From Candidatus Kaiserbacteria bacterium (GTDB lineage Bacteria > Patescibacteriota > Minisyncoccia > Phycocordibacterales > UBA2100), in the NCBI GenBank assembly GCA_016217925.1, contig JACRFK010000003.1, forward strand, positions 207,656 through 271,655: 64,000 bases of DNA. The letters are read 5' to 3'. The position numbers were made by a program, and so were the translations under genes. Under the pieces are notes generated by a model. That model had not been told where the DNA came from. It searched no databases and saw only the letters and a list, made by a program, of their open reading frames with translations. The first letter of the stretch is position 1. Every line of letters starts with the position of its first letter. Shown in pieces: positions 2,056 through 62,719 of this stretch.

Positions 2056-2748
2056 CTATGTGCTATCGAGCGAGTCTAGAGAGCCTGGCTTCCCAGTCAC
2101 ATCCCATGTCTCGACCCATCGCAAGTATGCTAGTCGCACGATGAGGCGTTTGTGCGTCCGCACTTTGATATGCTGTATCCTTAACGTCTTGTAGATATCG
2201 TTGAAGTTTCTATTTACTGTCAAGGGCTCAGTTTCCATCTCTGCGGCTATTTGCCTGGCCGTTTCGTATCCCATGCGGAGATGCATCAGCGTGGCTCGTT
2301 TTCGCGCAGGCAACGAGTTGACCCCTTCTGCCAACGCATCGAGGTTGAGTTTGTAGTAGCCGATAATGTCGGGCGGCACTTCAGGCCGGCCGCGGCCCGT
2401 TCCCCGAAGTTTGGCATTCTTTTTTGGGGATTGAGCATGCTGTGTAGCAGCAACCTGTGCGCTTGCGCGACACATTTCGGCGAACTTTTTGTACGAGCTG
2501 CCGATAGCTCGGAGCATCGCCTTTTCGCTACTCAGGCCGTAGAGGTTGAGTTTGCCGCACATACCGGTGAAAAGCTCGCGCGCGCTTTCCTTGTCCGTCC
2601 CGCGACGGACTTTGATCTGCAGCTGGGTATCTATTTTTGGTAGATCATTCCCGAGAGCGAGCTGCCTCGCGACGAACAGTTCGTCCTCGCTGAAGCGCAG
2701 AAAGGTACTGTAGACCTCTGCGTTCAACGGTTGATCGGTTGAGTTCAT
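2056..2748 (-). CDS. DNA-binding protein with C-terminal sigma-70 region-4-like HTH
   Basis: 230 aa ORF; LPARKRATLMHLRMGYETARQIAAEMETEPLTVNRNFNDIYKTL resembles sigma region 4. Confidence 0.4.
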   Translation of the reverse strand: MNSTDQPLNAEVYSTFLRFSEDELFVARQLALGNDLPKIDTQLQIKVRRGTDKESARELFTGMCGKLNLYGLSSEKAMLRAIGSSYKKFAEMCRASAQVAATQHAQSPKKNAKLRGTGRGRPEVPPDIIGYYKLNLDALAEGVNSLPARKRATLMHLRMGYETARQIAAEMETEPLTVNRNFNDIYKTLRIQHIKVRTHKRLIVRLAYLRWVETWDVTGKPGSLDSLDST

Positions 2749-4651: not shown

Positions 4652-5647
4652 CTATTGTGCGTTTTGCTGTGCCTGCCCATTTCCGCCGAAGGCGGATTCT
4701 CCTCCGGAGAACAATTTGTAATACGCGCGGTTGGTGAAGCGGAGATCTATATATTCAAGCTTGTCCCGTTTATCCTTCAACACGTCCGATGAAAGCACGA
4801 GTTGCAAATTTTTCACGAGAGTGTTCGCATCAGCGCCGTATGAGGCTTTGATGGTAAAACCTTCTCCAAGCTGCACGAAAAAGTCCTGGTCGTTATCCAC
4901 GTGTGCTCCGAGCGGGGTGAGGCCCGCCTGCCCCAAGAGCTTGAGGAGCGAGAGCATGCCCGGCAAGTGCGCCTGAACGAACGACTCCCCTAACGGGTAG
5001 GTCGAGGTGGCAGTCACCTCCTGCGCGGGTAGCCCCCCGGCAAAAACATACTGCGTACTCGAGGTGGCGGTGCCAGCCCAACCCATCGGTGCGTAAATAA
5101 ATCCACTCGCGTCCATCAGATAGCAGTATCCCTGTTGGATTCCAGTGCACCAACGGGCAAACGGCTCACGCTCCTCTATCGTAATAACGATGTCCGTCGC
5201 AAATACGGAAGGCCGTGAAATGTGGACTGATTTAACGGGATGAAAAGATGCGATTGCCTTCTCGAGTTCCACCTGCGGATACAAAAAGATATTACGGCGC
5301 GAGAGAACATGGTACGCGCCGTCGTCGAGTACCGTCTCGACGAAACGTTTGACGTGTTCTTCTTTCATGCCCTTGGCACCCACGACAGAAATGCCGGATA
5401 CGTTGAACTGCGGAAGGTACGAGGCCCAACTCACCCCATAAAAAATCGCACCGCATAGAACGAGGACAGCGAGCGCAAAGACTGCGCGCACGCGCCGACG
5501 CCTTGCGCGCAGGGGCATCGGCCGCTTCGGCGGCTCGGGAGCGCGCGGACCCTGCAGAGAAAAAAGCGGCACCTGCCCGCGCGGCGGGCTCTTCGGCGCA
5601 CGGCCGCCCCGTAAATCAATGACTCCACTACTTTTTTTCGATTGCAT
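4652..5647 (-). CDS. ftsQ: cell division protein FtsQ/DivIB-like (POTRA domain)
   Basis: N-terminal TM (VFALAVLVLCGAIFY), POTRA-like VKSVHISRPSVFATDIVITIEEREP. C-terminal tail SGGESAFGG is encoded by a copy of the ~30-nt palindromic element. Confidence 0.55.
   Translation of the reverse strand: MQSKKSSGVIDLRGGRAPKSPPRGQVPLFSLQGPRAPEPPKRPMPLRARRRRVRAVFALAVLVLCGAIFYGVSWASYLPQFNVSGISVVGAKGMKEEHVKRFVETVLDDGAYHVLSRRNIFLYPQVELEKAIASFHPVKSVHISRPSVFATDIVITIEEREPFARWCTGIQQGYCYLMDASGFIYAPMGWAGTATSSTQYVFAGGLPAQEVTATSTYPLGESFVQAHLPGMLSLLKLLGQAGLTPLGAHVDNDQDFFVQLGEGFTIKASYGADANTLVKNLQLVLSSDVLKDKRDKLEYIDLRFTNRAYYKLFSGGESAFGGNGQAQQNAQ
4682..4711. repeat. ~30-nt palindromic in-frame element (GG-Ser-rich coding), copy in ftsQ 3' end
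   Basis: CCGCCGAAGGCGGATTCTCCTCCGGAGAA; about 85% identical to copies in gyrA, pth and the GIY-YIG gene. Confidence 0.7.
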
Positions 5648-18587: not shown

Positions 18588-19025
18588 CTATACGAGCGCC
18601 GAGGCGTGCGAGAAGAGCTCACACACTTTGTTCCACGGGCCAAAACCTCCGCTCTGGTTGGTAAGCGTTTTCATGAGCGTATCCACCACGAGCCACCCGG
18701 CGAGGATGATGACGAGCCCGATGGCAACATTCGCAAATATCTCTTTGGCGCGTGAGACCTCATTGCCTGCCACGCTTGTGAGGTAGAGCCACCCCGCCCA
18801 TGCAAAAAGCACTGCTGAGAGGAACACCGCGATATAAATGCCGGTGTTGAGGACATTCTGTGCGACCGTCGCAATATCACAGATCGATTGGCAGCCGCCA
18901 ACGACATTACATTCCTTCGGTACTATCTGTCCCGGCAGTGCATTTGCCGCGAGTACGACAGACGGGGCGACGATAAAAACTACTATAAAAAGAGCGAGGC
19001 TCCGAACCAACTCTCTGCGGGTCAT
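18588..19025 (-). CDS. TrbC/VirB2-like pilin family small two-TM protein (6th paralog)
   Basis: Signal/TM, then two TMs with acidic loop AGNEVSRAKEIF...IGLVIILAGWLVVDTL; same architecture as the 28339..30516 cluster. Start at internal MTRRELV. Confidence 0.45.
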   Translation of the reverse strand: MTRRELVRSLALFIVVFIVAPSVVLAANALPGQIVPKECNVVGGCQSICDIATVAQNVLNTGIYIAVFLSAVLFAWAGWLYLTSVAGNEVSRAKEIFANVAIGLVIILAGWLVVDTLMKTLTNQSGGFGPWNKVCELFSHASALV

Positions 19026-26331: not shown

Positions 26332-26415
26332 GTCGGGGTGGCGAAATTGGTAGACGCGCGTCACTTAAGATGACGTGACCGAAAGGTTCTGAGGGTTCGA
26401 TTCCCTCCCCCGACA
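26332..26415 (+). tRNA. tRNA-Leu (anticodon TAA), type II
   Basis: GTCGGGG...CGTCA CTTAAGA TGACG, long variable arm, GGTTCGATTCC, CCCCGAC A. Confidence 0.8.
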
Positions 26416-27950: not shown

Positions 27951-28164
27951 CTTGAGACAAAAAGAGCACCTGCGTGCCCTTTTTGCTTACAAGTCCGAGA
28001 CGGAGCGCTGTGAGGCCAGCAGGCCGAACCGCGAGTCGTGGTCAGAAAATCTTTGCTGCGACGGCAGCAAAGATATTTGTGACGACGAAAAATCTGTTAG
28101 GATACGCGGGTTGGGCTCCCGATTTGTCTACGCCTCGCGCAGCTACAAATCGCAGTCCTCCTGA

Positions 28165-28203
28165 GGGCAGGTGGCGAAATTGGCGAATCAGCTGATTCGT
28201 GGC
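28165..28203 (+). pseudogene. tRNA 5'-half fragment (tRNA-Leu-like acceptor/D-arm)
   Basis: GGGCAGGTGGCGAAATTGGCGAATCAG shares the GGTGGCGAAATTGG D-arm with tRNA-Leu-TAA; no anticodon or T arm. Confidence 0.35.
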
Positions 28204-28233
28204 TTGGCCATGAAAACGCGCTCTTTTCAAAGT

Positions 28234-28315
28234 GCTGGGGTGGTGAAATTGGCAGACACGCAAGGTTTAGGACCTTGTGCCGCAAGGCGTGGAGGTTCAA
28301 GTCCTCTCCCCAGCA
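28234..28315 (+). tRNA. tRNA-Leu (anticodon TAG), type II
   Basis: GCTGGGG...CAAGG TTTAGGA CCTTG, long variable arm, GGTTCAAGTCC, CCCCAGC A. Confidence 0.8.
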
Positions 28316-28338
28316 CTTTGAACGGAACAAACAAATAG

Positions 28339-28650
28339 TTACTGAAAGAAACTCCCCGGTAGCATGATGTTGTTGGCGCGCGAGACGTCCGGATTGCGAA
28401 AGTCGAGGCCGAAGGTGTTGTCGAGCAGGTCGAGAATGCCGTAGACCGAGACCATGATGAGCATGCCTATGATGCCCCAGAGCATGTGCTGTTTTCCTTC
28501 TTCATTCTCCCCTCCCTCGTTCAAATTCCAGAGGAACTCCACGAGCCCGTAGACGAACAGAAAAAAGCCGGCCGCGAAGACGACAAGTATCACCGGATTT
28601 ATAATGTAGGTCACGAACCGGTCCATTATGTTCGTTGCTGCGTTTGTCAT
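28339..28650 (-). CDS. TrbC/VirB2-like pilin family small two-TM protein (paralog 1)
   Basis: 103 aa; TM1 ILVVFAAGFFLFVYGL, acidic loop NEGGENEEGK, TM2 WGIIGMLIMVSVYGILDLL. Confidence 0.45.
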   Translation of the reverse strand: MTNAATNIMDRFVTYIINPVILVVFAAGFFLFVYGLVEFLWNLNEGGENEEGKQHMLWGIIGMLIMVSVYGILDLLDNTFGLDFRNPDVSRANNIMLPGSFFQ

Positions 28651-28706
28651 AGTTAGACAGAGGCGATCAATAATGCGCCTTTTGGTTCACGAGAGATGCA
28701 TCCCTC

Positions 28707-29069
28707 TTAGTAGCCGCCGACGCCGGTGTTGATCTGAATGCCTTTTGGAATGACCGGGTCAGTGGAGGTCACCTTAAATGTGCTCTGCAAAAGGCGGATG
28801 ATGCCCCAGATGGAGACCATGACGAAGATGGCAATAACCCCATAGAACATGATAGATAAGCCTTCGCTCGCCTCCTCACCTGCGTGCATGAGGTACCTGA
28901 TAAGACCCCAGAAGAAAACGACGATCGCGAGCGTGATGAAGAGACCTATCATCGCGTTCAAGAACGTGTTGAAGAGGGCGAGTGTATCAAGCAGTGTCGC
29001 AGCACTTGCGAGCGCGGGGAGTGCGAGTGTCGCCGCTGCAAGAACCGAAGAACCTAGTATTTTACGCAT
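28707..29069 (-). CDS. TrbC/VirB2-like pilin family protein (paralog 2)
   Basis: Signal peptide; FFWGLIRYLMHAGEEASEGLSIMFYGVIAIFVMVSIWGIIRLLQSTF. Confidence 0.45.
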   Translation of the reverse strand: MRKILGSSVLAAATLALPALASAATLLDTLALFNTFLNAMIGLFITLAIVVFFWGLIRYLMHAGEEASEGLSIMFYGVIAIFVMVSIWGIIRLLQSTFKVTSTDPVIPKGIQINTGVGGY

Positions 29070-29341
29070 AAAATATAATATATGACCTCCGCTTTAGCTA
29101 ATATCTATGTACCTTAATGGTATAGCTATGCGCCTAAAACACAATATATGTTTGGGGATAACCGACTCCGCCGTGAGGTGACCCCGCTCGAAGAGAGCGC
29201 CCGTAGGGGCCGAATGTCGGCTACTGCCGATATGAGGCGGGTCAGGCACGCGCGAGCACGCGCGGGCCAAAAGTCGAGAAGGGTCCGGCACGTGCGGGCG
29301 CAAGCGACTCGCGGGCGTAGAGCGCACTGCCAACGAAGACA

Positions 29342-29752
29342 TTAGTGCTCCGCTGATTCTTTCTTCTCCCCGCCTCCCGATTTCGCAGCGATAACAACGA
29401 TGATCCAGACGATGATGACGGCTAGAATAAAGGACCCAACAAAGCGTGCTTCGCGCGGATGATACTGGAAGAATTGGACGATAGCCAAAAGCACGACCAG
29501 AACGAAAAGAATGACGACCGACCACTCCATGATCTTGATCGCTTCGGTGCGATACGTCGGCCACGTTCCAAGGCGCACGAACCACACGACAAACCCGGTG
29601 CCATAGATGACAAGCGCCGTCGTAAGCATAAGTCCTACGAACACGTTGAAAAGTCCTACCGCCTGCGCGAAGGAGGTTTCGGCACTTGCGTACACGGGCA
29701 ACACAAGCACGAGAGGCGCAAAAAGACGTAAGAAGTATAGTGTTGTTCGCAT
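29342..29752 (-). CDS. TrbC/VirB2-like pilin-related membrane protein (paralog 3, extended C-terminus)
   Basis: Start at internal MRTTLYFLRL; signal peptide; LFNVFVGLMLTTALVIYGTGFVVWFV; additional C-terminal TMs. Confidence 0.4.
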   Translation of the reverse strand: MRTTLYFLRLFAPLVLVLPVYASAETSFAQAVGLFNVFVGLMLTTALVIYGTGFVVWFVRLGTWPTYRTEAIKIMEWSVVILFVLVVLLAIVQFFQYHPREARFVGSFILAVIIVWIIVVIAAKSGGGEKKESAEH

Positions 29753-29762
29753 ATGGAATTCT

Positions 29763-30149
29763 CTATTCAGAAACAAATTGCGGTGTCTCGAAGCCGTTCG
29801 ACGCTGTCTGTACCTCACCAGTCGTCGGATTACCGACGCTGCCGCCGAAGAGCGTATCTTGCAACAGGCGTAAGATGCCCCAGATGGAGACCATCACGAA
29901 TAGAACAATGATGCCCCACAAAAAATACGCCCTGAGCTTTTCTCCGGCCTCATTGCTGAAATTAAGGATGTTGGTGGAAACTCCGTAGAAATAGACGACG
30001 ATGCCCGCGACCACGAGGACCGCCGTCGCGTCATTGAGTATGGTGACTACTACGTTGGAAAGCTCGAGAAATGTGCGCGGAGCCGAGGCAAAAGCCACCG
30101 CCGGCGTTGTGAGGAGTGCAAGGGCAAACACAAAGCGGAGCAGCGACAT
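29763..30149 (-). CDS. TrbC/VirB2-like pilin family protein (paralog 4)
   Basis: Start at internal MSLLRFVF; FYGVSTNILNFSNEAGEKLRAYFLWGIIVLFVMVSIWGILRLLQDTLFG. Confidence 0.45.
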   Translation of the reverse strand: MSLLRFVFALALLTTPAVAFASAPRTFLELSNVVVTILNDATAVLVVAGIVVYFYGVSTNILNFSNEAGEKLRAYFLWGIIVLFVMVSIWGILRLLQDTLFGGSVGNPTTGEVQTASNGFETPQFVSE

Positions 30150-30150
30150 A

Positions 30151-30516
30151 TCAGTTGCCGACGAGTTGTGTGACGGTCCCACCGATGAGTGTTGCGATAA
30201 CCCACGCACCGAGGATGAGCAGTGCGCCGATAATGACATATACAAAATTCTTTTTCGCTTCCTCAAGCTTGCTCGAATTGCCGCGTGCAAAAACGAACAT
30301 AAAGCCTGCTATGACGATAAAAAGCGCGATTATCGGCAGCGCAACGATGACAAGCACCTTCAATGCGCCTGCGATGAACGCGGGGATGGTACTGAAGTTG
30401 CTATTAAGCGGGTTCTCGAGATCTGCGTGCGCGATCACCACAGTGGCGAATGTGATAGCCGCGGAAGCAGCCACGGACGCAAGATGATGCGTGGTTCGAG
30501 TGAGGTGTTTCATCAT
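30151..30516 (-). CDS. TrbC/VirB2-like pilin family protein (paralog 5)
   Basis: Signal peptide; IIALFIVIAGFMFVFARGNSSKLEEAKKNFVYVIIGALLILGAWVIATL; ATGA overlap with upstream SBP gene. Confidence 0.45.
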   Translation of the reverse strand: MMKHLTRTTHHLASVAASAAITFATVVIAHADLENPLNSNFSTIPAFIAGALKVLVIVALPIIALFIVIAGFMFVFARGNSSKLEEAKKNFVYVIIGALLILGAWVIATLIGGTVTQLVGN

Positions 30517-31859
30517 AAGCCCAAAATATGTGCCATCTCCTGGTCCGCGCGCTGTACAGCCTCGGTGACAAGCAGTGTACCGCTCGTCGTATTCTCAATC
30601 ATAGCTTGGAAAAGTGCGCTTGTCTTATCGGGGTCGGGATCGAGCCAGGAGTGCGCAAGAATAGCTTGTTTGTTGAAGAGATCGTCGTTGCCCTGTGCCG
30701 GCTTGTTGAGGATGTCACGGCGTGCGCTTGGTATTCCGAGCGCAGTTGAGAGAGGACCGGCCGTATCGGCAGAGACGAGAAGGAATGCGACGGTAATTGC
30801 CCCTCCGGGATTCTTGCCCGCGCGAGAAGCCGCTAGAGCCCAAACGCGCCCCGTGTTAAGCGTGTTCTTTGCTGCGCGTACCTGCGGCATTGGCGCCACG
30901 GCATAATTGAGATTCGGGTTCATGCGTGTGATGCGCGGAGCCTCGCTTGCGTAGCCGATATAAAGAGCCACGTCGCCGGAGGCAAATGCTTTTTGGGATT
31001 CGGGAAGCGAGCGGCTCCAAGAGTAGTCGTTCTTCGACGGGTCGGAGAATTCCGTATAGAAACGCAGGGCGGAGGCCGTTGATTGTATCGACGTCGCCCC
31101 GACGCGCGGCGCGAGCGCCGGTGTGAGACGTCCGGCGTTATCAAATGCCGTAATATCACCACCAGCTTGAAGTATGAGAGTCGCGAGAATATCTTTTGCG
31201 TTCGTCACATTCCTGTATTCGCCGAGTGCGATCGCCGATTTCACGATCGAGCCACTCTCGTTGCGCTCACTCGTCTTTTGCGCAATACCGAAAAGCTCAT
31301 CCCAATACTTCGGCGGTTGTGCGTATCCGGCAGAGGCGAGCATGTCTTTGTTCCAGTAGAGGACGAGTGGATCGGCGAGAAGCGGCACAGCTATCACACC
31401 GTTTTGTGCGAGAAATGGTCTTGCCGCCTCGACGAACGTACTCTCAAATTGAGTCCGGGATAAAGCGGAGAACGGGATCACTGATACTTTACCCGCATTT
31501 TTTAGGGCGTAATCCTGTCGCATTAAGAAAAGGTCGGGGCCAGCCCCGCTTGCAAGCGCGTTGATGAGATCCGCCTCGAAAGTCACTGGATCTTTTTGCT
31601 CGTAGGTTACCTGACTCAACTGTGCGTTGTTCTCGGCGGCTTGGCGAAGGACGGTAGCGAAGGCATTCTGATCGAGTGTGCCCCATATACGTACCGGCCC
31701 GATCGCACTGCCTTGCCCGCCACCGATAGCAAGCGCGAATATGAGCACGCCGGAAATGGCGAGACCGCCAAAAACGACGAGTAGTGTTATCTGGAACATC
31801 GAAAGTTTTTTCATCCCGCTCTTTTTATGTTTGTAAATATTGTTTTCATAGTACTCCAA
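30513..31859 (-). CDS. extracellular solute-binding protein, ABC family 1 (orphan, membrane-anchored)
   Basis: 448 aa; N-terminal TM, periplasmic-binding-protein type 2 fold sequence; no adjacent permease or ATPase. Confidence 0.65.
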   Translation of the reverse strand: MEYYENNIYKHKKSGMKKLSMFQITLLVVFGGLAISGVLIFALAIGGGQGSAIGPVRIWGTLDQNAFATVLRQAAENNAQLSQVTYEQKDPVTFEADLINALASGAGPDLFLMRQDYALKNAGKVSVIPFSALSRTQFESTFVEAARPFLAQNGVIAVPLLADPLVLYWNKDMLASAGYAQPPKYWDELFGIAQKTSERNESGSIVKSAIALGEYRNVTNAKDILATLILQAGGDITAFDNAGRLTPALAPRVGATSIQSTASALRFYTEFSDPSKNDYSWSRSLPESQKAFASGDVALYIGYASEAPRITRMNPNLNYAVAPMPQVRAAKNTLNTGRVWALAASRAGKNPGGAITVAFLLVSADTAGPLSTALGIPSARRDILNKPAQGNDDLFNKQAILAHSWLDPDPDKTSALFQAMIENTTSGTLLVTEAVQRADQEMAHILGL

Positions 31860-31864
31860 ATTTT

Positions 31865-31882
31865 GAAAGGGCGGGATTCATG
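31865..31882 (+). repeat. copy of GAAAGGGCGGGATTCATG motif (M1)
   Basis: Identical 18-mer to the reverse complement of 8225..8242; intergenic between two minus-strand genes. Confidence 0.5.
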
Positions 31883-32477
31883 ATGTTTTTTGCGGGACGA
31901 GACGAAGGATCAGCCCATAATGATGGCCCCCTGCGGAAAATTCGCGTAACAGTTTGAAGCCGTTTTCCTGTGCGAGCTTGAGCGCCTTCTCTTTTCCGAC
32001 AATAGCCTCCTTGCTTGGACCGAAGGAACTTGCCCCGTTGGAACGCGAAACGTTTCCAATGGGGTCGCTCCAATCAATGATAGCAAGTTTTCCCGTGGGT
32101 TTGAGTACTCTCCACGCTTCGGCAAGCACTGCGGCTTTGTTCTCGATCTGGAACAAAAGATTCGAGATGAGCACAAGGTCGAGCGTCTTGTCCGCAATTT
32201 TGGAGGCCCCCGGGTGTTCGAGGTCCGTCCATATCACATCCACATTCTTGAATCCGCGCCGATGTGCCTCGTTCTTCACTCGTTTCAAGAGGTCCTGCTG
32301 CACATCTATTGCGTATACACGGCCAGCATGTTCGAGCGCCTCGGCGATATGGAGTACGTAGATGCCGCTGCCCGAGCCAAAATCGGCGACTGACATTCCG
32401 GGCTCAACACCGAGCGCCGCGACATTGCGCTTCGGGTGCGCAAAACTCGCCGTCTGTAGCGGAGTACTTGTAGACAT
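31878..32477 (-). CDS. class I SAM-dependent methyltransferase
   Basis: 199 aa; motif I VADFGSGSGIY; DVIWTDLEHP. Confidence 0.7.
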   Translation of the reverse strand: MSTSTPLQTASFAHPKRNVAALGVEPGMSVADFGSGSGIYVLHIAEALEHAGRVYAIDVQQDLLKRVKNEAHRRGFKNVDVIWTDLEHPGASKIADKTLDLVLISNLLFQIENKAAVLAEAWRVLKPTGKLAIIDWSDPIGNVSRSNGASSFGPSKEAIVGKEKALKLAQENGFKLLREFSAGGHHYGLILRLVPQKTS

Positions 32478-40693: not shown

Positions 40694-41305
40694 ATGAGTG
40701 AAAACTCACCAAGTGAGGCGCAAAACGTCCCCGTCTCTAACGGGGCGGGTACCCAAAAAGGTTCTCAGCGCTCACTATTCATTTACACGGTCGTTGCGCT
40801 CGGCCTCGCGCTCTTCATCCGCTTTTTCGTCGCTGCGCCGTACGTCGTTTCAGGTGCTTCCATGGAACCAAACTTCGAAGATTGGAATTATTTGATCGTT
40901 GACCGTGTGTCGTATGTCTTTGGGGCCCCCGTTCGCGGAGACGTCATCGTTCTCGACCTTCCGCAGAACGAAAGCCGCGCGCTCATCAAGCGAGTTATCG
41001 GCCTCCCCGGTGAGACCGTCGTACTCTCCGGCCAAAAAGTGACGATTATCAACGAAGAGCACCCGCAAGGCTTCACACTCGAGGAGCCGTACCTCGATGC
41101 AGCCAACCTCACGGGCAGCAACGAGCTTACGATGGAACTTTCCGGAGACGAATATTTTGTACTCGGCGACAACCGCCGCGTTTCCGCAGATTCACGCATC
41201 TGGGGCTCGCTTCCGCGCAAGGACATCGTCGGCCGCGTGTTTATAAGACTCTACCCTCTCGATCACATCGGTATTTTTCCCGCTGAAGCACGCTACACGG
41301 AATAA
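40694..41305 (+). CDS. lepB: signal peptidase I
   Basis: TM, catalytic GASMEPN (SM(E/Q)P box), GDVIVL, GDNRRVSADSR. Confidence 0.85.
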   Translation: MSENSPSEAQNVPVSNGAGTQKGSQRSLFIYTVVALGLALFIRFFVAAPYVVSGASMEPNFEDWNYLIVDRVSYVFGAPVRGDVIVLDLPQNESRALIKRVIGLPGETVVLSGQKVTIINEEHPQGFTLEEPYLDAANLTGSNELTMELSGDEYFVLGDNRRVSADSRIWGSLPRKDIVGRVFIRLYPLDHIGIFPAEARYTE

Positions 41306-46635: not shown

Positions 46636-47565
46636 ATGTCGGAGAGCTACGAACTCGGAATTGTGGGCGGCGGCCCCGCAGGGGCCGCCGCAGCTATCTA
46701 CGCCGCGCGCAAACGCTTGAAGACCGTCTTCATCACGAGTGAATGGGGCGGCCAAAGCACAGTCTCGACCGATGTGCAGAATTGGATAGGTACGCCTTCC
46801 ATCTCCGGCACCGAGCTCGCGGCCAACTTGCGCAAACACGTGGAAGCGTACGCCGGTGAATGGCTCACCATCGTCTCCCCCGCACTTGCGACCGGCCTCA
46901 CCACACACGACGACCGCGTTGAGATGACGACGAACAAGGGCGTATTTCAGGCGGGCGCCGTCCTCATCACGACCGGTGCCAACCGTCGCAAACTCGAAGT
47001 GAAAGGTGCGGCGCAGTACGACCAAAAAGGCCTCACCTATTGCGCGAGCTGTGACGGTCCCCTCTTTGCCGACAAAGATGTAGCGGTCATCGGCGGCGGC
47101 AACGCCGCATTTGAAACGGCGCTCCAGCTCCTTGCCTACTGTAAGACCGTGACGCTTTTCAATCGCACCGACACCTTTAGGGCCGACGCGATATCCGTCA
47201 ATGCCGCGCTCACCAACCCAAAAATGCACGTCATAAAGCAGAGCGAGATACTCGAAGTCGTCGGCGACAAATTCATCACGGGCCTGCGTTGGAAAGACTC
47301 ACAAAGCGGCAAAGAAGAGGTCCTCCCCGTTGAGGGTATCTTCGTTGAAATAGGACTCATTCCAAATACCGCGTGGACGGGCAGCGCCGTTGAGAAAAAC
47401 GAAATAGGACAGGTCAAAGTGGACCCCCGCACGCACCAGGCCTCGCACCCGCGCATCTGGGCCGCGGGCGATTGCACCGACGGCCTCTACCACCAAAACA
47501 ACATAGCCGCCGGCGACGCCGTGAAAGCGCTTGAGGATATCTACATGGCGCTGCGGAGGGTTTAG
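46636..47565 (+). CDS. trxB: thioredoxin-disulfide reductase
   Basis: FAD site GGGPAGAAAAIYAAR, redox CASCDG, NADPH site GGGNAAFETAL. Confidence 0.85.
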   Translation: MSESYELGIVGGGPAGAAAAIYAARKRLKTVFITSEWGGQSTVSTDVQNWIGTPSISGTELAANLRKHVEAYAGEWLTIVSPALATGLTTHDDRVEMTTNKGVFQAGAVLITTGANRRKLEVKGAAQYDQKGLTYCASCDGPLFADKDVAVIGGGNAAFETALQLLAYCKTVTLFNRTDTFRADAISVNAALTNPKMHVIKQSEILEVVGDKFITGLRWKDSQSGKEEVLPVEGIFVEIGLIPNTAWTGSAVEKNEIGQVKVDPRTHQASHPRIWAAGDCTDGLYHQNNIAAGDAVKALEDIYMALRRV

Positions 47566-48212
47566 GAGGTTATCCGCTTCAAGACCGAAAACGCGCGGTC
47601 GATATCCGCATTGTCGAAAATAATACTGAGTTCCGTTCGCACCGACATTATTTCGACGAAGCTGATGCTCTCGGTCGCGAGCGCTTTCAATATCGGATAG
47701 TACATGCCCGGCACGGTGAGGCTCTCCTCGGGCATACGCATCGTTATCGCCGACAGATTTCCGATTTTCTTTGTGTGTTTTTCACTTGCGAGCGCCGCCG
47801 TTACTTCGGGCTCGAATTCCGAGCTTACGATGATGAGCGACTCGTGGAGCCCGCGCGAAAAATTGAGAAATGTGTCTTTGCGTTTCGATGCGCTTTTGGA
47901 CAGCGTCTCCAATACCCGCGGAAGCGCCTCGGAATTCGCACAGACAAATTCGACGAGGTTGGAACGTACTGTCAGGTCGTTCATCTTTTTCACAAGCTTC
48001 GCGCTGTACAGATTTTGCGCAGGCTTTTTGCGCATGCGATGCAGCGCCATTGCGATAGCGGCCTCGGATACTTTCTCGTAGAGGCGTTTCTCGACATCGG
48101 GACGTATCTTGCGCGCGATTTGCGCATTATTGGCGATACCCTCGGCCATCGCCTCGGCGAGGAATGGCGAGCGTTGGATTATCTCCTCGACGGCCTGGCT
48201 TATCGTTCTCAT
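47562..48212 (-). CDS. hypothetical protein with C-terminal ACT-like domain
   Basis: Start at internal MRTISQ; C-terminus LTVPGMYYPILKALATESISFVEIMSVRTELSIIFDNADIDRAF has ACT-like beta-alpha-beta pattern. Confidence 0.4.
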   Translation of the reverse strand: MRTISQAVEEIIQRSPFLAEAMAEGIANNAQIARKIRPDVEKRLYEKVSEAAIAMALHRMRKKPAQNLYSAKLVKKMNDLTVRSNLVEFVCANSEALPRVLETLSKSASKRKDTFLNFSRGLHESLIIVSSEFEPEVTAALASEKHTKKIGNLSAITMRMPEESLTVPGMYYPILKALATESISFVEIMSVRTELSIIFDNADIDRAFSVLKRITS

Positions 48213-48296
48213 CCCGCTCTTTCTAGACTGATAATCAAGGGTAGACGAGCATAGGGAGAGAAGACCCGCAGGGGACTGACAAGCCGGACGTGCGAT

Positions 48297-48315
48297 GAAA
48301 GGGCGGGACTCATTG
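48297..48315 (+). repeat. variant copy of GAAAGGGCGGGA(C/T)TCAT motif (M1)
   Basis: GAAAGGGCGGGACTCATTG; intergenic. Confidence 0.45.
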
Positions 48316-48448
48316 TCAGGAATATAACAAATTGTTACATATTTGCAATTATACCCACGAAATTTGTTTCCGCGGCTACGTGGCTTCATATTCACCGAGG
48401 GAAACGTTTCCGGACAAAACTGCACATTCACAAGTGAGGGCCAGTGCC

Positions 48449-60940: not shown

Positions 60941-62719
60941 TTATTGGTCCTGAAGGAATCCTCCGGCTTGGTGGGCCCAGAGTTGGGAATAAATCCCGCT
61001 CCCGGCGACAAGCTGCTCGTGTGTGCCCTCTTCGACGATTTTGCCGCTATCCAAGACGATGATGCGGTCCATCTCGCGCAAAGTCGAGAGGCGATGGGCG
61101 ATGGCGATGACCGTCTTCCCTTTCATCAATTCGCGAAGTGCCTTCTGTATCTCCACCTCGCTTTCGCTGTCGAGCGCGGAGGTCGCCTCATCGAGCAGAA
61201 GTATCGGCGCATTTTTCAGTATCGCACGGGCAATCGCTATGCGCTGGCGCTCGCCGCCCGAGAGCTTGATGCCGCGCTCGCCCACCATCGCGCCATAGCC
61301 GGTCGGGAGATTCACGATGAAATCGTGGGCCTGTGCGAGCTTCGCCGCCTCGATGATCTCTCCTTCAGAGGCACCCGGATTCCCGTACGCGATATTCTCG
61401 CGGATGGTGCGGTGAAAAAGGAGTGGCTCTTGCGGCACGACCGAGATAGCGTTGCGGAGGCTCTCCTGCGTCACGCTTGCGATATCGGTGCCGTCGATGG
61501 TAATCGTCCCCGCGCTCAGATTGTGGTGGCGCAAAATGAGCCGTACGAGCGTGGATTTCCCGGCACCCGAACGGCCTACGACGCCGACCCTCTGTCCCGG
61601 AGGAACGACAAGCGTCATGTCATTAAATACGACATTTTCCCCATACGAGAAGCTCACCCCGTTGAACGCGAGCGCCCCGCCGCTTATCGCGAGTACCGAC
61701 GCATTTGGCTCATCGGGGATCTCGTGCGGCGCGATGATTTCCTCAAGGCTCTCGCTTATCTCGCCCCACGTCTCGGCAAATTTATTGAAATTCGAGCCGA
61801 GCGACTGCAAGAGACCCTCGATCCTGAAAATGATCGTGATGACCAAAATGATGTCGCCGAAAGAGAGTATGCCCGCGCGCGAGAACGATACCGTCGTAAA
61901 GACCATGGCGGTCCCGAACACGACCAAGAGAACGCTGTTGAGTACCCGCGTCCACTCGCCGAAATACCAGCTCGCGATATGCGCCCGCCGGCGGTCATCC
62001 GTTGCTCCTTTCAGTCGCTCGATCTCAAATTCACGGCGCGCGTATTCCTGCATCGCGCTCACGTTGGTGAGGAGGTCGACCGTGGCACCGTTCAGCGTTG
62101 TCTCCAGATTGTGTGCGCGCGCCGAGAGCGGTACGCGCCGGTACCCGAGGTATATGTTGATGAGCAAGATTGCGAAAACCCATGCGAGGAACATCCACGC
62201 GATGGGCGGACTCACGAGAAACACAATGATGAAGCTCGTGACCGCATTCACGCCGAGCTCCAGGAATTCCCACAAAAAGACGTCGACGACCTCGCGCATG
62301 CCGGTCGCCGCGTGCCGTATCTTGTTCATGATAGAGCCCGCAAAACGGTCCGAAAAATAAGTACGGCTGTGGAGCGTGACGTATGAAGTGAGCGCGTAAC
62401 GTGCGGTCGCCGAGGCGCCCGTCGCCCAGCGCGCGCCCATGAATCCCGATATGCGCCAAAAGAGTTTTGCGAGAGCAAGCACGAGTATCGTCGCGCCCGA
62501 AGCCATATACAGCAAGTCGTACGAACCGCCTTGTACGAGCGCGACCACCGCATCCGTCACCAATTTGAACACATAGGCGACGCTTGCGGAAAAAGCATTG
62601 CCCGCCGCGGCGAGGAGTATCGCAAGGACGGCGGCCCGCCAGTGCGGCTGTGAGGCAAAAAGGAAGAACCGGAGGGGGTTCTTCGTCATGGGGAGGTCGT
62701 CGCGCCAGATAGAGGTCAT
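60941..62719 (-). CDS. ABC transporter, fused permease/ATP-binding (exporter, MsbA-like)
   Basis: 592 aa; 6 TM plus NBD: Walker A GRSGAGKST, signature LSGGERQR, Walker B ILLLDEATSALD. Confidence 0.85.
   Translation of the reverse strand: MTSIWRDDLPMTKNPLRFFLFASQPHWRAAVLAILLAAAGNAFSASVAYVFKLVTDAVVALVQGGSYDLLYMASGATILVLALAKLFWRISGFMGARWATGASATARYALTSYVTLHSRTYFSDRFAGSIMNKIRHAATGMREVVDVFLWEFLELGVNAVTSFIIVFLVSPPIAWMFLAWVFAILLINIYLGYRRVPLSARAHNLETTLNGATVDLLTNVSAMQEYARREFEIERLKGATDDRRRAHIASWYFGEWTRVLNSVLLVVFGTAMVFTTVSFSRAGILSFGDIILVITIIFRIEGLLQSLGSNFNKFAETWGEISESLEEIIAPHEIPDEPNASVLAISGGALAFNGVSFSYGENVVFNDMTLVVPPGQRVGVVGRSGAGKSTLVRLILRHHNLSAGTITIDGTDIASVTQESLRNAISVVPQEPLLFHRTIRENIAYGNPGASEGEIIEAAKLAQAHDFIVNLPTGYGAMVGERGIKLSGGERQRIAIARAILKNAPILLLDEATSALDSESEVEIQKALRELMKGKTVIAIAHRLSTLREMDRIIVLDSGKIVEEGTHEQLVAGSGIYSQLWAHQAGGFLQDQ

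What the first reader, a model, noticed from the sequence alone, without database searches (positions are those of the whole stretch)
28339..31859. Five tandem TrbC/VirB2-like pilin paralogs plus an orphan solute-binding protein, wedged between tRNA genes; a sixth paralog sits beside tRNA-Tyr
All five genes encode 100-135 aa proteins with signal/TM, an acidic loop and a second TM (shared ...FVMVSIWGI(L/I)RLLQ(D/S)TF...). They sit on one strand with ATGA overlaps into a membrane-anchored ABC-type SBP that has no permease or ATPase partner. tRNA-Lys, a tRNA 5'-half fragment and tRNA-Leu-TAG lie immediately upstream. A sixth paralog lies at 18588..19025 next to tRNA-Tyr. Expansion of VirB2-like pilins without the rest of a T4SS in the window suggests either a dedicated surface-filament or adhesion system, or the cargo of a tRNA-targeted element.
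Basis: partly seen in the sequence, partly recalled or inferred. Interest (0 to 1): 0.6.

Follow-up and report, generated by a model that had tools for sequence, protein, structure and literature searches.

The report
Conserved sugar-binding protein plus pilin-like gene array
An ultra-small groundwater bacterium (Candidatus Kaiserbacteria) has a stable chromosomal operon joining a membrane-anchored sugar-binding protein to five different conjugation-type pilin-like proteins; such pilin arrays are already known in this group, but the fixed partnership with a binding protein seems not to have been described.

Summary
Five small genes lie head to tail on the minus strand (28339-30516), behind a 433-aa MalE-like solute-binding protein (SBP, 30513-31814). 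A sixth paralog lies at 18588-19025. HMMs place them in PF18895 T4SS_pilin / PF04956 TrbC-VirB2; no holin, phage or PrgI family matches.

The tRNA-island idea is refuted. The same order, GyrA, methyltransferase, SBP, g5-g4-g3-g2-g1, then tRNA-Leu(TAG)/Lys/Leu/Cys, recurs in other Kaiserbacteria.

The SBP is not an orphan. Of 62 Patescibacteria species loci carrying its ortholog (94 to 31% identity), 58 have pilin-like ORFs immediately downstream, normally 4-6. The other four contigs end at the SBP. The SBP stop and first pilin start overlap as ATGA in 32 of 58 loci.

Each paralog has a 1:1 ortholog under purifying selection (dN/dS 0.03-0.12), so this is a fixed subunit set, not a variable array.

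No T4SS ATPase lies in the window or within 10 kb of any locus. Published tables report VirB4 in 6 of 7 named Kaiserbacteria MAGs that carry the module.

Tandem VirB2-like arrays in Patescibacteria were published in 2023 and 2025. I rate this a new variant of a known kind, of moderate interest.

The parts
30513..31814 (-). Membrane-anchored family-1 (MalE-like) solute-binding protein, 433 aa. It has an N-terminal TM anchor (residues about 4-34) and no lipobox Cys. The ORF could extend to TTG 31859.
   Evidence: PF01547 E 8e-21 and PF13416 E 5e-15. The AF2 model has pLDDT 88.9. The best Foldseek PDB matches are oligosaccharide-binding SBPs (5ci5 E 9e-23, 1eu8, 5ysf, 2zyo). An independent gene call gives 433 aa. 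Orthologs occur in 62 Patescibacteria species loci.
30151..30516 (-). g5: TrbC/VirB2-type pilin-like protein, 121 aa, with a signal peptide and two TM helices. Its start overlaps the SBP stop (ATGA).
   Evidence: PF18895 34.5 bits (GA 26.6) and PF04956 30.5 bits (GA 27.9). There is a weak NCBIfam hit to a Mbov_0395 pilin-like conjugal transfer protein. The ATGA overlap is conserved in 32/58 loci. dN/dS 0.09.
29763..30149 (-). g4: pilin-like paralog, 128 aa, with a signal peptide and two TM helices. It lies 1 nt after g5.
   Evidence: No direct Pfam hit. hhalign against the g2 group gives 99.8% probability (E 8e-29). 1:1 orthologs at 60-62% identity. Gene call of 128 aa in L087.
29342..29752 (-). 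g3: pilin-like paralog, 136 aa, with a signal peptide, two TM helices, a third C-terminal TM (101-128) and a charged tail.
   Evidence: PF18895 E 5e-3, sub-threshold. hhalign to g2 98.0% and to g4 96.5%. Hydropathy. The third TM and charged tail are also present in the L001 and L004 orthologs.
29070..29341 (-). 272-nt spacer between g3 and g2. Its g2-proximal third (about 29075-29160) is AT-rich, with GGAGG ahead of the g2 ATG. It is a candidate internal promoter for g2-g1.
   Evidence: Read directly from the sequence. A spacer at this position recurs in relatives: 180 nt in L001, 95 nt in L004, and about 2 kb in L017. The consensus promoter scan did not flag it, so promoter function is inferred only.
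28707..29069 (-). g2: pilin-like paralog, 120 aa. It is the most conserved member and the candidate major subunit. It has a signal peptide ending ALASA|A, two TM helices and a conserved C-terminal tail.
   Evidence: PF18895 27.0 bits (GA 26.6). 744 homologs were found, and the best 120 are at least 76% identical. dN/dS 0.028. AF2 gives a helical hairpin, H3-61 and H67-98, pLDDT 72.5.
28339..28650 (-). g1: pilin-like paralog, 103 aa, with two TM helices and no signal peptide. It is the last gene of the operon.
   Evidence: PF18895 23.4 bits, below GA. hhalign to g2 99.4%. Orthologs at 72-81% identity. In L060-L063 the gene at this position carries a C-terminal extension of roughly 250-650 aa.
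18588..19025 (-). g6: sixth paralog, 145 aa, g5-like subfamily, with a Cys-containing N-terminal extension. It is detached from the array and lies next to tRNA-Tyr and ClpB.
   Evidence: PF18895 23.2 bits, below GA. BLAST to g5 orthologs E 3e-7. A profile hit sits at the same position after ClpB in L001 and L002. In distant Paceibacteria a g6-like gene is the first array gene after the SBP.
31878..32477 (-). Class-I SAM-dependent methyltransferase, 199 aa, directly upstream of the SBP. It is a possible operon member, with no demonstrated functional link.
   Evidence: Same-strand neighbour in 55/59 loci, often overlapping the SBP start. NCBIfam gives only sub-threshold ArsM/UbiE-like hits. It is absent in L068.
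28234..28316 (+). tRNA-Leu(TAG), convergent with g1. It is a conserved syntenic neighbour and not an integration site.
   Evidence: ARAGORN and Rfam. The same tRNA lies just beyond g1 in L001, L004, L008, L009, L018, L020 and L036.
28170..28184 (+). Fragment of about 15 nt identical to the 5' end of tRNA-Leu, inside the variable 282-nt spacer between tRNA-Lys and tRNA-Leu.
   Evidence: An exact 14-mer is shared with tRNA-Leu(TAA) at 26337-26350. No tRNA model hit appears at E<=10.

Best explanation
This is a stable chromosomal operon of a Candidatus Kaiserbacteria (Patescibacteria, class Paceibacteria) genome. It encodes a fixed set of five non-interchangeable VirB2/TrbC-type pilin-like subunits plus a dedicated, membrane-anchored MalE-like sugar-binding protein. 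A sixth subunit is encoded 9 kb away.

Proposed mechanism:
1. SBP, g5, g4 and g3 are made together from tightly packed genes (spacers -4, +1 and +10 nt). g2 and g1 may get extra expression from the AT-rich spacer ahead of g2.
2. The subunits enter the membrane through Sec. Signal peptidase I cuts g2-g6 after an AxA site. This leaves two-helix hairpins with both ends outside the cell. g1 inserts uncleaved.
3. A VirB4/VirB6/VirB3-type platform encoded elsewhere in the genome extracts the hairpins and assembles a short heteromeric pilus or envelope-spanning conduit. g2 would be the major subunit. g3, with its third TM and cytoplasmic tail, would act as a membrane-retained base. g1 would be the distal or adaptor subunit. 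g5 and g6 would be TrbC-like initiators.
4. The SBP, produced in fixed ratio with g5, binds an oligosaccharide-type ligand at the cell surface. Most likely this is a glycan of the host cell or host-derived sugar, which would couple recognition or capture of host material to the pilus apparatus.

Shown here: gene set, order, coupling, family membership, predicted topology, purifying selection, wide conservation of the SBP-array link, and absence of nearby T4SS genes.

Inferred: Sec and SPase processing, polymerisation, the subunit roles, dependence on VirB4, and the SBP ligand and role.
For: - Family: Pfam hits to PF18895 and PF04956. Relatives' array members all pass the PF18895 gathering score. 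The paralogs are linked by hhalign.
- Architecture: signal peptide, two hydrophobic helices and a short polar loop. AF2 gives a helical hairpin.
- Fixed subunit set: 1:1 orthologs in the same order g5-g4-g3-g2-g1 in about 45 species loci. dN/dS is 0.03-0.12.
- SBP link: 58 of 62 Patescibacteria SBP loci have pilin-like ORFs immediately downstream, normally 4-6. The other four contigs end at the SBP. None of 18 SBP loci from other phyla has them.
- Coupling: ATGA overlap in 32/58 loci and a gap of at most 14 nt in 50/58.
- Independence from local context: the link also holds in L068, which lacks the gyrA/methyltransferase context.
- SBP fold: sugar-binding type.
- T4SS elsewhere: VirB4 is listed as present in 6 of 7 named Kaiserbacteria MAGs that carry this module, including RIFCSPHIGHO2_02_FULL_55_25 (PMC12102498 Table S1).
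- Precedent: six PF18895 pilins in the T4SS locus of Ca. Southlakia epibionticum are essential for epibiotic growth (PMC10633639). Arrays of 2-11 VirB2-like genes were reported in 383 Patescibacteria assemblies (PMC12102498).
- Distal role of g1: in L060-L063 the gene in the g1 position carries a C-terminal extension of roughly 250-650 aa.
Against: - No VirB4, VirB6, VirB3 or coupling protein lies in the 64-kb window or within 10 kb of any of the 58 loci. Dependence on a T4SS is therefore unproven here.
- Only g5, and marginally g2, pass Pfam gathering scores. g4 has no direct hit.
- g5 links to g1-g4 only weakly by hhalign (29-52% probability).
- Neither sequence profiles nor Foldseek connect the proteins to any solved VirB2, TraA or CedA1 structure.
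- The loop between the helices is acidic rather than basic.
- No pilus has been seen in any Paceibacteria, as far as I know.
- One module-bearing MAG (54_11b) is listed without VirB4, though it is an incomplete draft.
- The SBP is TM-anchored, so it cannot ride on a pilus tip unless it is cleaved.
Confidence: 0.55

Rival explanations
1. Autonomous envelope apparatus. The SBP and the five or six two-helix proteins form a self-contained membrane or cell-wall-spanning complex that does not use a T4SS ATPase. One form would be a scaffold that presents the sugar-binding protein at the cell surface, like the Sulfolobus bindosome. Another would be a new SBP-fed uptake channel whose pore is built from the pilin-like hairpins.
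For: - SBP and array co-occur strictly and are translationally coupled across the class.
- The subunits are a fixed set of distinct, individually conserved proteins, like those of a complex.
- The strongest conservation lies inside TM2 and in the g2 C-terminal tail.
- No T4SS genes and no ABC permease lie nearby in any locus.
- The bindosome shows that pilin-like proteins can serve to deploy SBPs (PMC3047682).
Against: - The proteins are homologous to conjugative pilins, whose known mode of action needs VirB4.
- VirB4 is present in most relatives.
- The bindosome uses type IV pilin-like proteins, and its SBPs carry class III signal peptides. This SBP lacks such a signal: no Gly at -1, no Glu at +5, and no N_methyl hit.
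- No energising component is evident.
Confidence: 0.2
2. Conventional ABC-import receptor that is merely co-regulated. The SBP delivers a sugar to a MalFG/MalK-type transporter encoded elsewhere. It is co-transcribed with the T4SS pilins only because both are envelope functions expressed together.
For: - The SBP has a canonical MalE-like two-lobe fold with high model confidence.
- Public annotations name it as an ABC-type sugar or glycerol-3-phosphate binding protein.
- Orphan SBPs that use distant permeases are known (my own knowledge).
Against: - The adjacency persists from 94% down to 31% SBP identity and in a different genomic context (L068), with start/stop overlap. That is far more than co-regulation usually preserves.
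- No permease is linked in any of the 58 loci.
Confidence: 0.15
3. Variation array. The paralogs are interchangeable major pilins kept for antigenic or host-range variation, as proposed for multi-copy VirB2 in Bartonella and Anaplasma and suggested for Patescibacteria arrays.
For: - Identity between paralogs is low (15-30%), as in published arrays (mean 25%, PMC12102498).
Against: - Each paralog has a 1:1 ortholog in the same position across dozens of species.
- Selection is strongly purifying (dN/dS 0.03-0.12).
- The paralogs differ in architecture: g1 has no signal peptide and g3 has an extra TM.
- The exposed C-terminal tail of g2 is nearly invariant.
Confidence: 0.05
4. Cargo of a mobile element integrated at a tRNA gene.
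For: - Several tRNA genes lie next to the array.
- A 14-nt tRNA-Leu 5' fragment lies in the adjacent spacer.
- The Lys/Leu inter-tRNA spacer varies among relatives.
Against: - The array, its order, its gyrA/methyltransferase flank and the same tRNAs are conserved across other Kaiserbacteria.
- GC is 0.53-0.54 against about 0.55 for the window.
- No integrase family was found in the ORFs scanned, and no direct repeat of a tRNA 3' end brackets the array.
- The variable part is the spacer beyond tRNA-Leu, not the array.
Confidence: 0.02

Closest known systems
Essential pilin array of Ca. Southlakia epibionticum ML1 (SEML1_0014-0019; Wang et al. 2023, PMC10633639)
   Same: Both are tandem runs of about six small, sequence-divergent PF18895 (some also PF04956) proteins of 100-185 aa in a Patescibacteria chromosome. 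Both carry Sec-type signal peptides and fold as a two-helix hairpin.
   Different: The Southlakia array sits inside the T4SS cluster, next to VirB6-like, PrgI and VirB4 genes, and has no SBP. The array here is separated from any T4SS gene, is headed by a translationally coupled SBP, and belongs to a different class (Paceibacteria rather than Saccharimonadia).
VirB2-like pilin arrays catalogued across Patescibacteria (Quinonero-Coronel et al. 2025, PMC12102498)
   Same: This locus matches their definition: 2-11 tandem genes hitting PF18895/PF04956, with a mean identity within arrays of about 25%.
   Different: The paper reports arrays as most abundant in Microgenomatia and Saccharimonadia and suggests host-range versatility. 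It does not mention an SBP. Here the array is a fixed, orthologous subunit set under purifying selection and is bound to an SBP.
Conjugative pilins VirB2 (Agrobacterium), TrbC (RP4) and TraA (F)
   Same: g5 passes the PF04956 gathering score. The architecture is shared: a long signal peptide, two hydrophobic helices and a short connecting loop.
   Different: The host here is a monoderm. No VirB5, VirB7, VirB9 or VirB10 and no cyclisation partner are evident. The loop is acidic. Several distinct subunits replace a single one. No solved structure is detectably similar.
Archaeal Ced/Ted DNA-import pili (CedA1, TedC; Beltran et al. 2023, PMC9905601)
   Same: Both are chromosomally encoded, non-mobile VirB2-like pilins in a cell without an outer membrane, used for a purpose other than plasmid transfer. 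They work with a VirB4-like ATPase and a VirB6-like channel.
   Different: No sequence similarity was detected here. Ced/Ted loci have no SBP and no five-member paralog set. DNA import by the system described here is not shown.
Sulfolobus bindosome assembly system (Bas; PMC3047682)
   Same: This is a functional analogy only. Small pilin-like proteins are needed to deploy sugar-binding proteins in the cell envelope of an organism without an outer membrane.
   Different: Bas uses type IV pilin-like proteins, a PilB/PilC-type ATPase and membrane protein, and SBPs with class III signal peptides. None of these features is present here.
SBP homologs attached to conjugation or T4SS systems (PrgZ of pCF10, TraC of pAD1, ChvE of Agrobacterium); from my own knowledge, not checked here
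   Same: In these cases a solute-binding-protein fold has been recruited as a sensor or receptor that works with a type IV secretion or conjugation system.
   Different: Those are family 5 (OppA-like) or family 2 SBPs. They sense pheromone or sugar signals and feed a permease or a sensor kinase. None is translationally coupled to pilin genes.

Membership tests
Pfam PF18895 T4SS_pilin / PF04956 TrbC-VirB2 | Score at or above the curated gathering threshold | tested here: met
   Met for g5 (34.5 against 26.6 bits; 30.5 against 27.9 bits) and narrowly for g2 (27.0 against 26.6). Not met individually by g1 (23.4), g6 (23.2) or g3 (17.3), and g4 has no hit. g1, g3 and g4 join g2 by hhalign at 96-99.8%. 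All four short array members of L061 and three tested in L068 pass the threshold.
Pfam PF18895 T4SS_pilin / PF04956 TrbC-VirB2 | Signal peptide followed by two hydrophobic helices joined by a short loop | tested here: met
   Hydropathy analysis and an AF2 hairpin for g2. The exceptions are g1, which has no signal peptide, and g3, which has a third TM.
Conjugative (VirB2-type) pilin | Genetic linkage to VirB4, VirB6 or VirB3 | tested here: not met
   None was found in the 64-kb window or among conserved neighbours within 10 kb in 59 loci. Presence elsewhere in the genome is known only from the literature on relatives.
Conjugative (VirB2-type) pilin | Structural similarity to a solved pilin (VirB2, TraA, CedA1) | tested here: inconclusive
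Conjugative (VirB2-type) pilin | Polymerises into an extracellular filament | not testable with these tools
   This needs cryo-ET or cryo-EM, or biochemistry.
Patescibacteria VirB2-like pilin array (PMC12102498) | 2-11 pilin genes in tandem or separated by one non-pilin gene, with low mutual identity | tested here: met
   Five in tandem. Identities to g1 are 15-30%.
Patescibacteria VirB2-like pilin array (PMC12102498) | Variable, lineage-specific paralogs (the proposed host-range versatility) | tested here: not met
   Orthology is 1:1 in fixed order, and dN/dS is 0.03-0.12.
ABC importer, family-1 substrate-binding protein | Two-lobe periplasmic-binding-protein type II fold of the MalE class | tested here: met
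   PF01547 and PF13416. AF2 pLDDT 88.9 and Foldseek E about 1e-22 to sugar SBPs, TM-scores 0.68-0.80.
ABC importer, family-1 substrate-binding protein | Cognate permease and ATPase genes in the same operon | tested here: not met
   None in the window or in any related locus. The only ABC protein in the window is an exporter-type fused TMD-NBD (60941-62719).
ABC importer, family-1 substrate-binding protein | Binds a small-molecule ligand in the inter-lobe cleft | not tested
   Many aromatic residues are invariant among orthologs (W44, Y71, Y153, W171, Y200, Y264, W266, Y285, W390). Their position relative to the cleft was not mapped.
tRNA-targeted genomic island | Integrase, flanking direct repeat of the tRNA 3' end, atypical composition, patchy presence among relatives | tested here: not met
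   No direct repeat of a tRNA 3' end brackets the array, and no integrase family turned up in the ORFs scanned. Only a 14-nt tRNA 5' fragment is present. GC is typical. The locus is conserved in relatives.
Bindosome-type system (type IV pilin-like) | Class III (prepilin) signal peptides on the SBP and small subunits; PilB/PilC-type assembly genes | tested here: not met
   The SBP N-terminus MKKLSMFQITLL has no Gly at -1 and no Glu at +5, and there is no N_methyl hit. The small proteins end their signal peptides in AxA, a signal peptidase I type site. No PilB or PilC is nearby.

The most novel reading that the evidence does not exclude
The SBP plus the five or six VirB2-like hairpin proteins form a previously unrecognised, self-contained envelope machine of Paceibacteria that works without a T4SS ATPase. 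It could be a pilin-scaffolded 'bindosome' or an SBP-fed uptake conduit that lets these metabolically dependent, transporter-poor cells capture host glycans. Conjugative-type pilins would then have been repurposed for nutrient acquisition.
Probability: 0.2. Interest if true: 0.75.

Novelty: new variant of a known kind. Interest (0 to 1): 0.45.

Why it matters
VirB2-like pilins are an oddity of the Patescibacteria type IV secretion system. Other monoderm T4SSs lack them. They are essential in the one organism tested, and their function is unknown.

This work shows that a whole class (Paceibacteria) keeps a fixed five- or six-subunit pilin set welded to a sugar-binding protein. That gives a concrete, testable handle on function: find the SBP's ligand and its contacts with the pilins.

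It also argues against the current suggestion that such arrays exist for variation.

If the module proves independent of VirB4, it would be a new kind of surface or uptake apparatus in organisms that dominate groundwater microbial 'dark matter'.

Tried and rejected

2. Profile searches of the g5 and g2 families against all PDB sequences found no pilin.

3. PHROGs and NCBIfam scans, to look for holin, phage or other assignments, found nothing relevant. The only hits were weak ones to a Mycoplasma ICE pilin-like family.

4. Rfam at a permissive threshold on the tRNA-Lys/tRNA-Leu spacer gave no tRNA or known RNA. The 'tRNA half' is a 14-16 nt match.

5. The consensus promoter and terminator scan gave counts at or below shuffled expectation. 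The internal promoter ahead of g2 remains an inference from AT-richness.

6. I could not reach the rest of the source genome. The identical protein P0121 is recorded on a 376-kb NCBI contig, but only a 4-kb Logan contig was retrievable. VirB4 presence therefore rests on the published table for relatives.

7. Table S3 of PMC12102498 is truncated in the stored copy before the Kaiserbacteria rows. I could not see whether that study called these genes or how it scored their proximity to virB4.

8. I considered a class III (prepilin-type) signal on the SBP because of its conserved F-Q motif. I rejected it because there is no Gly at -1, no Glu at +5 and no N_methyl hit.

Full report
**What is in the sequence**

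The window is a housekeeping stretch of a chromosome. It encodes DnaX, Dus, SerRS, DprA, TopA, RelA/SpoT, ParB, a Mur ligase, MiaA, ClpB, IF-2, GyrA, S1, Pth, signal peptidase I, FtsA, FtsZ, PurH, PyrE/F, a P-type ATPase and ten tRNAs. The organism is a Candidatus Kaiserbacteria (Patescibacteria/CPR, class Paceibacteria). The g5 protein is 100% identical to NCBI 'HY971_01460 [Candidatus Kaiserbacteria bacterium]'. The g2 protein is 96% identical to a protein of Kaiserbacteria RIFCSPHIGHO2_02_FULL_55_2x.

On the minus strand between 28339 and 31814 lie six genes:
- A 433-aa solute-binding protein (SBP; PF01547 E 8e-21), anchored by one N-terminal transmembrane helix.
- g5, 30151-30516.
- g4, 29763-30149.
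- g3, 29342-29752.
- g2, 28707-29069.
- g1, 28339-28650.

The spacers between them are -4 (ATGA), 1, 10, 272 and 56 nt. Gene calls on an independent contig with the identical g5 protein give the same boundaries for the SBP, g5, g4 and g3. A sixth paralog, g6, lies at 18588-19025, beside tRNA-Tyr and ClpB. A profile built from the six paralogs recovers only these six among the window's 708 ORFs.

**Family assignment**

- g5 passes the curated thresholds of both PF18895 (T4SS_pilin, 34.5 bits) and PF04956 (TrbC/VirB2, 30.5 bits).
- g2 just passes PF18895 (27.0 against 26.6 bits).
- g1, g6 and g3 score below threshold, and g4 has no direct hit.
- Profile-profile comparison of ortholog alignments ties g1, g2 and g4 together at 99% or more, and g3 to g2 and g4 at 96-98%.
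- g5 is only weakly tied to these four (29-52%).

There are therefore two subfamilies. One is a TrbC-like type (g5, g6). The other (g1-g4) carries the FVMVSIWGI..LLQ motif in its second helix.

In a distant relative (L061) all four short array members pass PF18895, and in L068 the three members tested do as well. No holin, phage, PrgI or defence family competes.

Hydropathy shows a signal peptide ending in AxA, then two hydrophobic helices joined by a short acidic loop, in g2, g4, g5 and g6. g1 has no signal peptide. g3 has a third transmembrane segment and a charged tail. AlphaFold2 models g2 as a helical hairpin with pLDDT 72.5. Fold and sequence searches against solved structures were uninformative.

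**Not an island**

Other Kaiserbacteria contigs show the same order: ClpB..., IF-2, RbfA..., tRNA-Cys, tRNA-Leu(TAA), tRNA-Lys(CTT), tRNA-Leu(TAG), g1-g2-g3-g4-g5, SBP, methyltransferase, GyrA. GC content is ordinary. No direct repeat of a tRNA 3' end brackets the array, and no integrase family turned up in the ORFs scanned.

It sits in the tRNA-Lys/tRNA-Leu spacer. That spacer, rather than the array, is what varies among relatives: from about 30 nt up to 1.6 kb with extra genes.

**The SBP is a constant partner**

I scanned one genome per species with an alignment of the SBP. This returned 62 Patescibacteria loci (SBP identity 94 to 31%) and 18 unrelated SBPs from other phyla. The Patescibacteria loci are labelled Kaiserbacteria, Zambryskibacteria, Giovannonibacteria, Doudnabacteria and 'Paceibacterota'.

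- An iterated pilin profile found pilin-like ORFs immediately downstream, on the same strand, in 58 of the 62, normally 4-6 of them. One of the 58 contigs (L023) breaks off after the first. The other four contigs end at the SBP.
- It found none in the 18 controls.
- The SBP stop overlaps the first pilin start as ATGA in 32 of 58 loci. The gap is 14 nt or less in 50 of 58.
- In L068 the upstream context is different: ComM-like and nucleotidyl-transferase genes replace gyrA and the methyltransferase. The SBP-array unit, including the ATGA overlap, persists there.

The SBP model is confident (pLDDT 88.9). It superimposes on oligosaccharide-binding proteins: Thermotoga 5ci5, the trehalose/maltose-binding protein 1eu8, a beta-1,2-glucooligosaccharide-binding protein and a cyclodextrin-binding protein, all at E about 1e-22 to 1e-21. 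No permease or ABC ATPase is a conserved neighbour.

**A fixed subunit set**

Each paralog has a 1:1 ortholog in the same position. Identities in L001 and L004 are: g1 81% and 72%, g2 87% and 80%, g3 63% and 53%, g4 62% and 60%, g5 73% and 68%. The order g5-g4-g3-g2-g1 holds in about 45 species loci. In deeper lineages the array starts with a g6-like gene and then a g5-like gene. The detached g6 of Kaiserbacteria therefore looks like a relocated array member.

Against the closest locus (L007, dS 0.4-1.1), dN/dS values are as follows:

| Gene | dN/dS |
|---|---|
| g1 | 0.049 |
| g2 | 0.028 |
| g3 | 0.118 |
| g4 | 0.109 |
| g5 | 0.092 |
| SBP | 0.051 |

This argues against the idea that such arrays serve antigenic or host-range variation.

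g2 is the most conserved member. Its extracellular C-terminal tail is nearly invariant, and it follows a 272-nt spacer with an AT-rich end. I infer that g2 is the major subunit. In L060-L063 the gene in the g1 position carries a C-terminal extension of roughly 250-650 aa. In L061 this is a Cys-containing fourfold repeat with no Pfam family. That is consistent with an exposed, distal role for g1.

**Relation to the literature**

Wang et al. (Cell 2023, PMC10633639) found six PF18895 pilins inside the essential T4SS cluster of Ca. Southlakia epibionticum. They lie next to VirB6-like, PrgI and VirB4 genes, and there is no SBP.

Quinonero-Coronel et al. (Microb Genom 2025, PMC12102498) found VirB2-like pilins in 1,948 assemblies and 441 arrays of 2-11 genes in 383 assemblies, with a mean identity within arrays of 25%. 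They proposed host-adaptation versatility. Their text mentions no solute-binding protein. A 2025 T4SS review repeats this picture.

My full-text searches for an SBP-pilin link in CPR or Parcubacteria found nothing. That does not prove it is undescribed.

Table S1 of PMC12102498 lists VirB4 as present in 6 of the 7 named Kaiserbacteria MAGs in which I found the module: 55_37, 54_36, 53_29, 55_25, 50_24 and 49_16. It is absent only from the draft MAG 54_11b. A T4SS ATPase is therefore probably encoded elsewhere in this genome, but I could not check that directly.

**Most likely mechanism and rivals**

*Best explanation (confidence about 0.55).* The subunits are exported through Sec and processed by signal peptidase I to give membrane-embedded hairpins. 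A distant VirB4/VirB6 platform assembles them into a short heteromeric pilus or conduit. The co-produced, membrane-anchored SBP binds a carbohydrate, probably of host origin, and links recognition or capture of it to the apparatus.

*Autonomous apparatus (about 0.2).* The module works as a bindosome-like or uptake machine that does not depend on a T4SS. The strict SBP coupling and the absence of any linked T4SS gene leave this open.

*Conventional importer receptor (about 0.15).* The SBP serves a distant ABC transporter and is only co-regulated with the pilins.

*Largely refuted.* A variation array (about 0.05) and a tRNA-targeted island (about 0.02).

**Verdict**

The pilin assignment is supported. 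The mobile-element reading is refuted.

The array as such is a known kind of feature of Patescibacteria. What appears new is its class-wide, translationally coupled union with a MalE-like binding protein, its fixed orthologous subunit composition, and its separation from the T4SS genes. I rate it a new variant of a known kind, with interest 0.45.

Noticed in passing
window 31878-32477 (-): A 199-aa class-I SAM methyltransferase, with only sub-threshold ArsM/UbiE-like hits, lies directly upstream of the SBP on the same strand in 55 of 59 related loci. It often overlaps the SBP start (ATGA). It may belong to the operon, for example as a modifier of the pilins or the SBP. It is absent in L068.
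   Followed up: partly
L060 13210-14268; L061 13236-15560; L062 13158-14639; L063 13413-15242: In a low-GC Paceibacteria lineage the last array gene (the g1 position) carries a C-terminal extension of roughly 250-650 aa. In L061 the extension is four repeats of about 110 aa, each with conserved Cys and Trp. No Pfam family matches. It is a possible adhesin or tip domain.
   Followed up: partly
window 31715-31814 (SBP residues 1-33): The SBP's N-terminal anchor carries a nearly invariant F7-Q8...L11...F15 pattern at the start of the helix across 53 orthologs. It is not a prepilin (class III) signal, because Gly at -1 and Glu at +5 are missing. The conservation suggests a specific intramembrane contact.
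   Followed up: partly
window 27952-28233 (+): The 282-nt spacer between tRNA-Lys(CTT) and tRNA-Leu(TAG) holds two hairpins (27958-27985, just after tRNA-Lys, and 28046-28077) and a 14-nt copy of the tRNA-Leu 5' end (28170-28183). In relatives the same spacer ranges from about 30 nt (L009) to 1.6 kb with two extra genes (L004). It looks like a local hotspot for insertions.
   Followed up: partly
window 18588-19025 (-) compared with L054-L063: The detached sixth paralog (g6) is the type that sits first in the array, right after the SBP, in deeper Paceibacteria lineages. In Kaiserbacteria it has moved about 9 kb away, next to ClpB and tRNA-Tyr, and that position is conserved in L001 and L002. 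It carries four Cys residues, three of them in an N-terminal extension.
   Followed up: partly
L001 8607-8870; L017 12441-14399: The array tolerates insertions. L001 has an 87-aa gene with weak Ig-like hits between g5 and g4. L017 has about 2 kb inserted between g3 and g2, at the position of the putative internal promoter.
   Followed up: no
window 40694-41305 (+): Signal peptidase I (Peptidase_S26, E 5e-42) is encoded 9 kb from the operon. It is the likely enzyme for the AxA cleavage predicted in g2-g6.
   Followed up: no
window 16975-17973 (-), 13419-14501 (-), 4652-5647 (-), 47562-48431 (-), 2056-2748 (-): Several sizeable ORFs (230-360 aa) have no Pfam family at the E-value cut-offs used (1e-3 or 1e-4). 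The ORF at 16975-17973 lies between MiaA and tRNA-Trp and has a Pro-rich C-terminus.
   Followed up: no
L001 12166-12891 (-): A LAGLIDADG homing-endonuclease-family gene lies next to the tRNA-Cys/tRNA-Leu cluster in one relative (L001/L002). It has no counterpart in the window.
   Followed up: no
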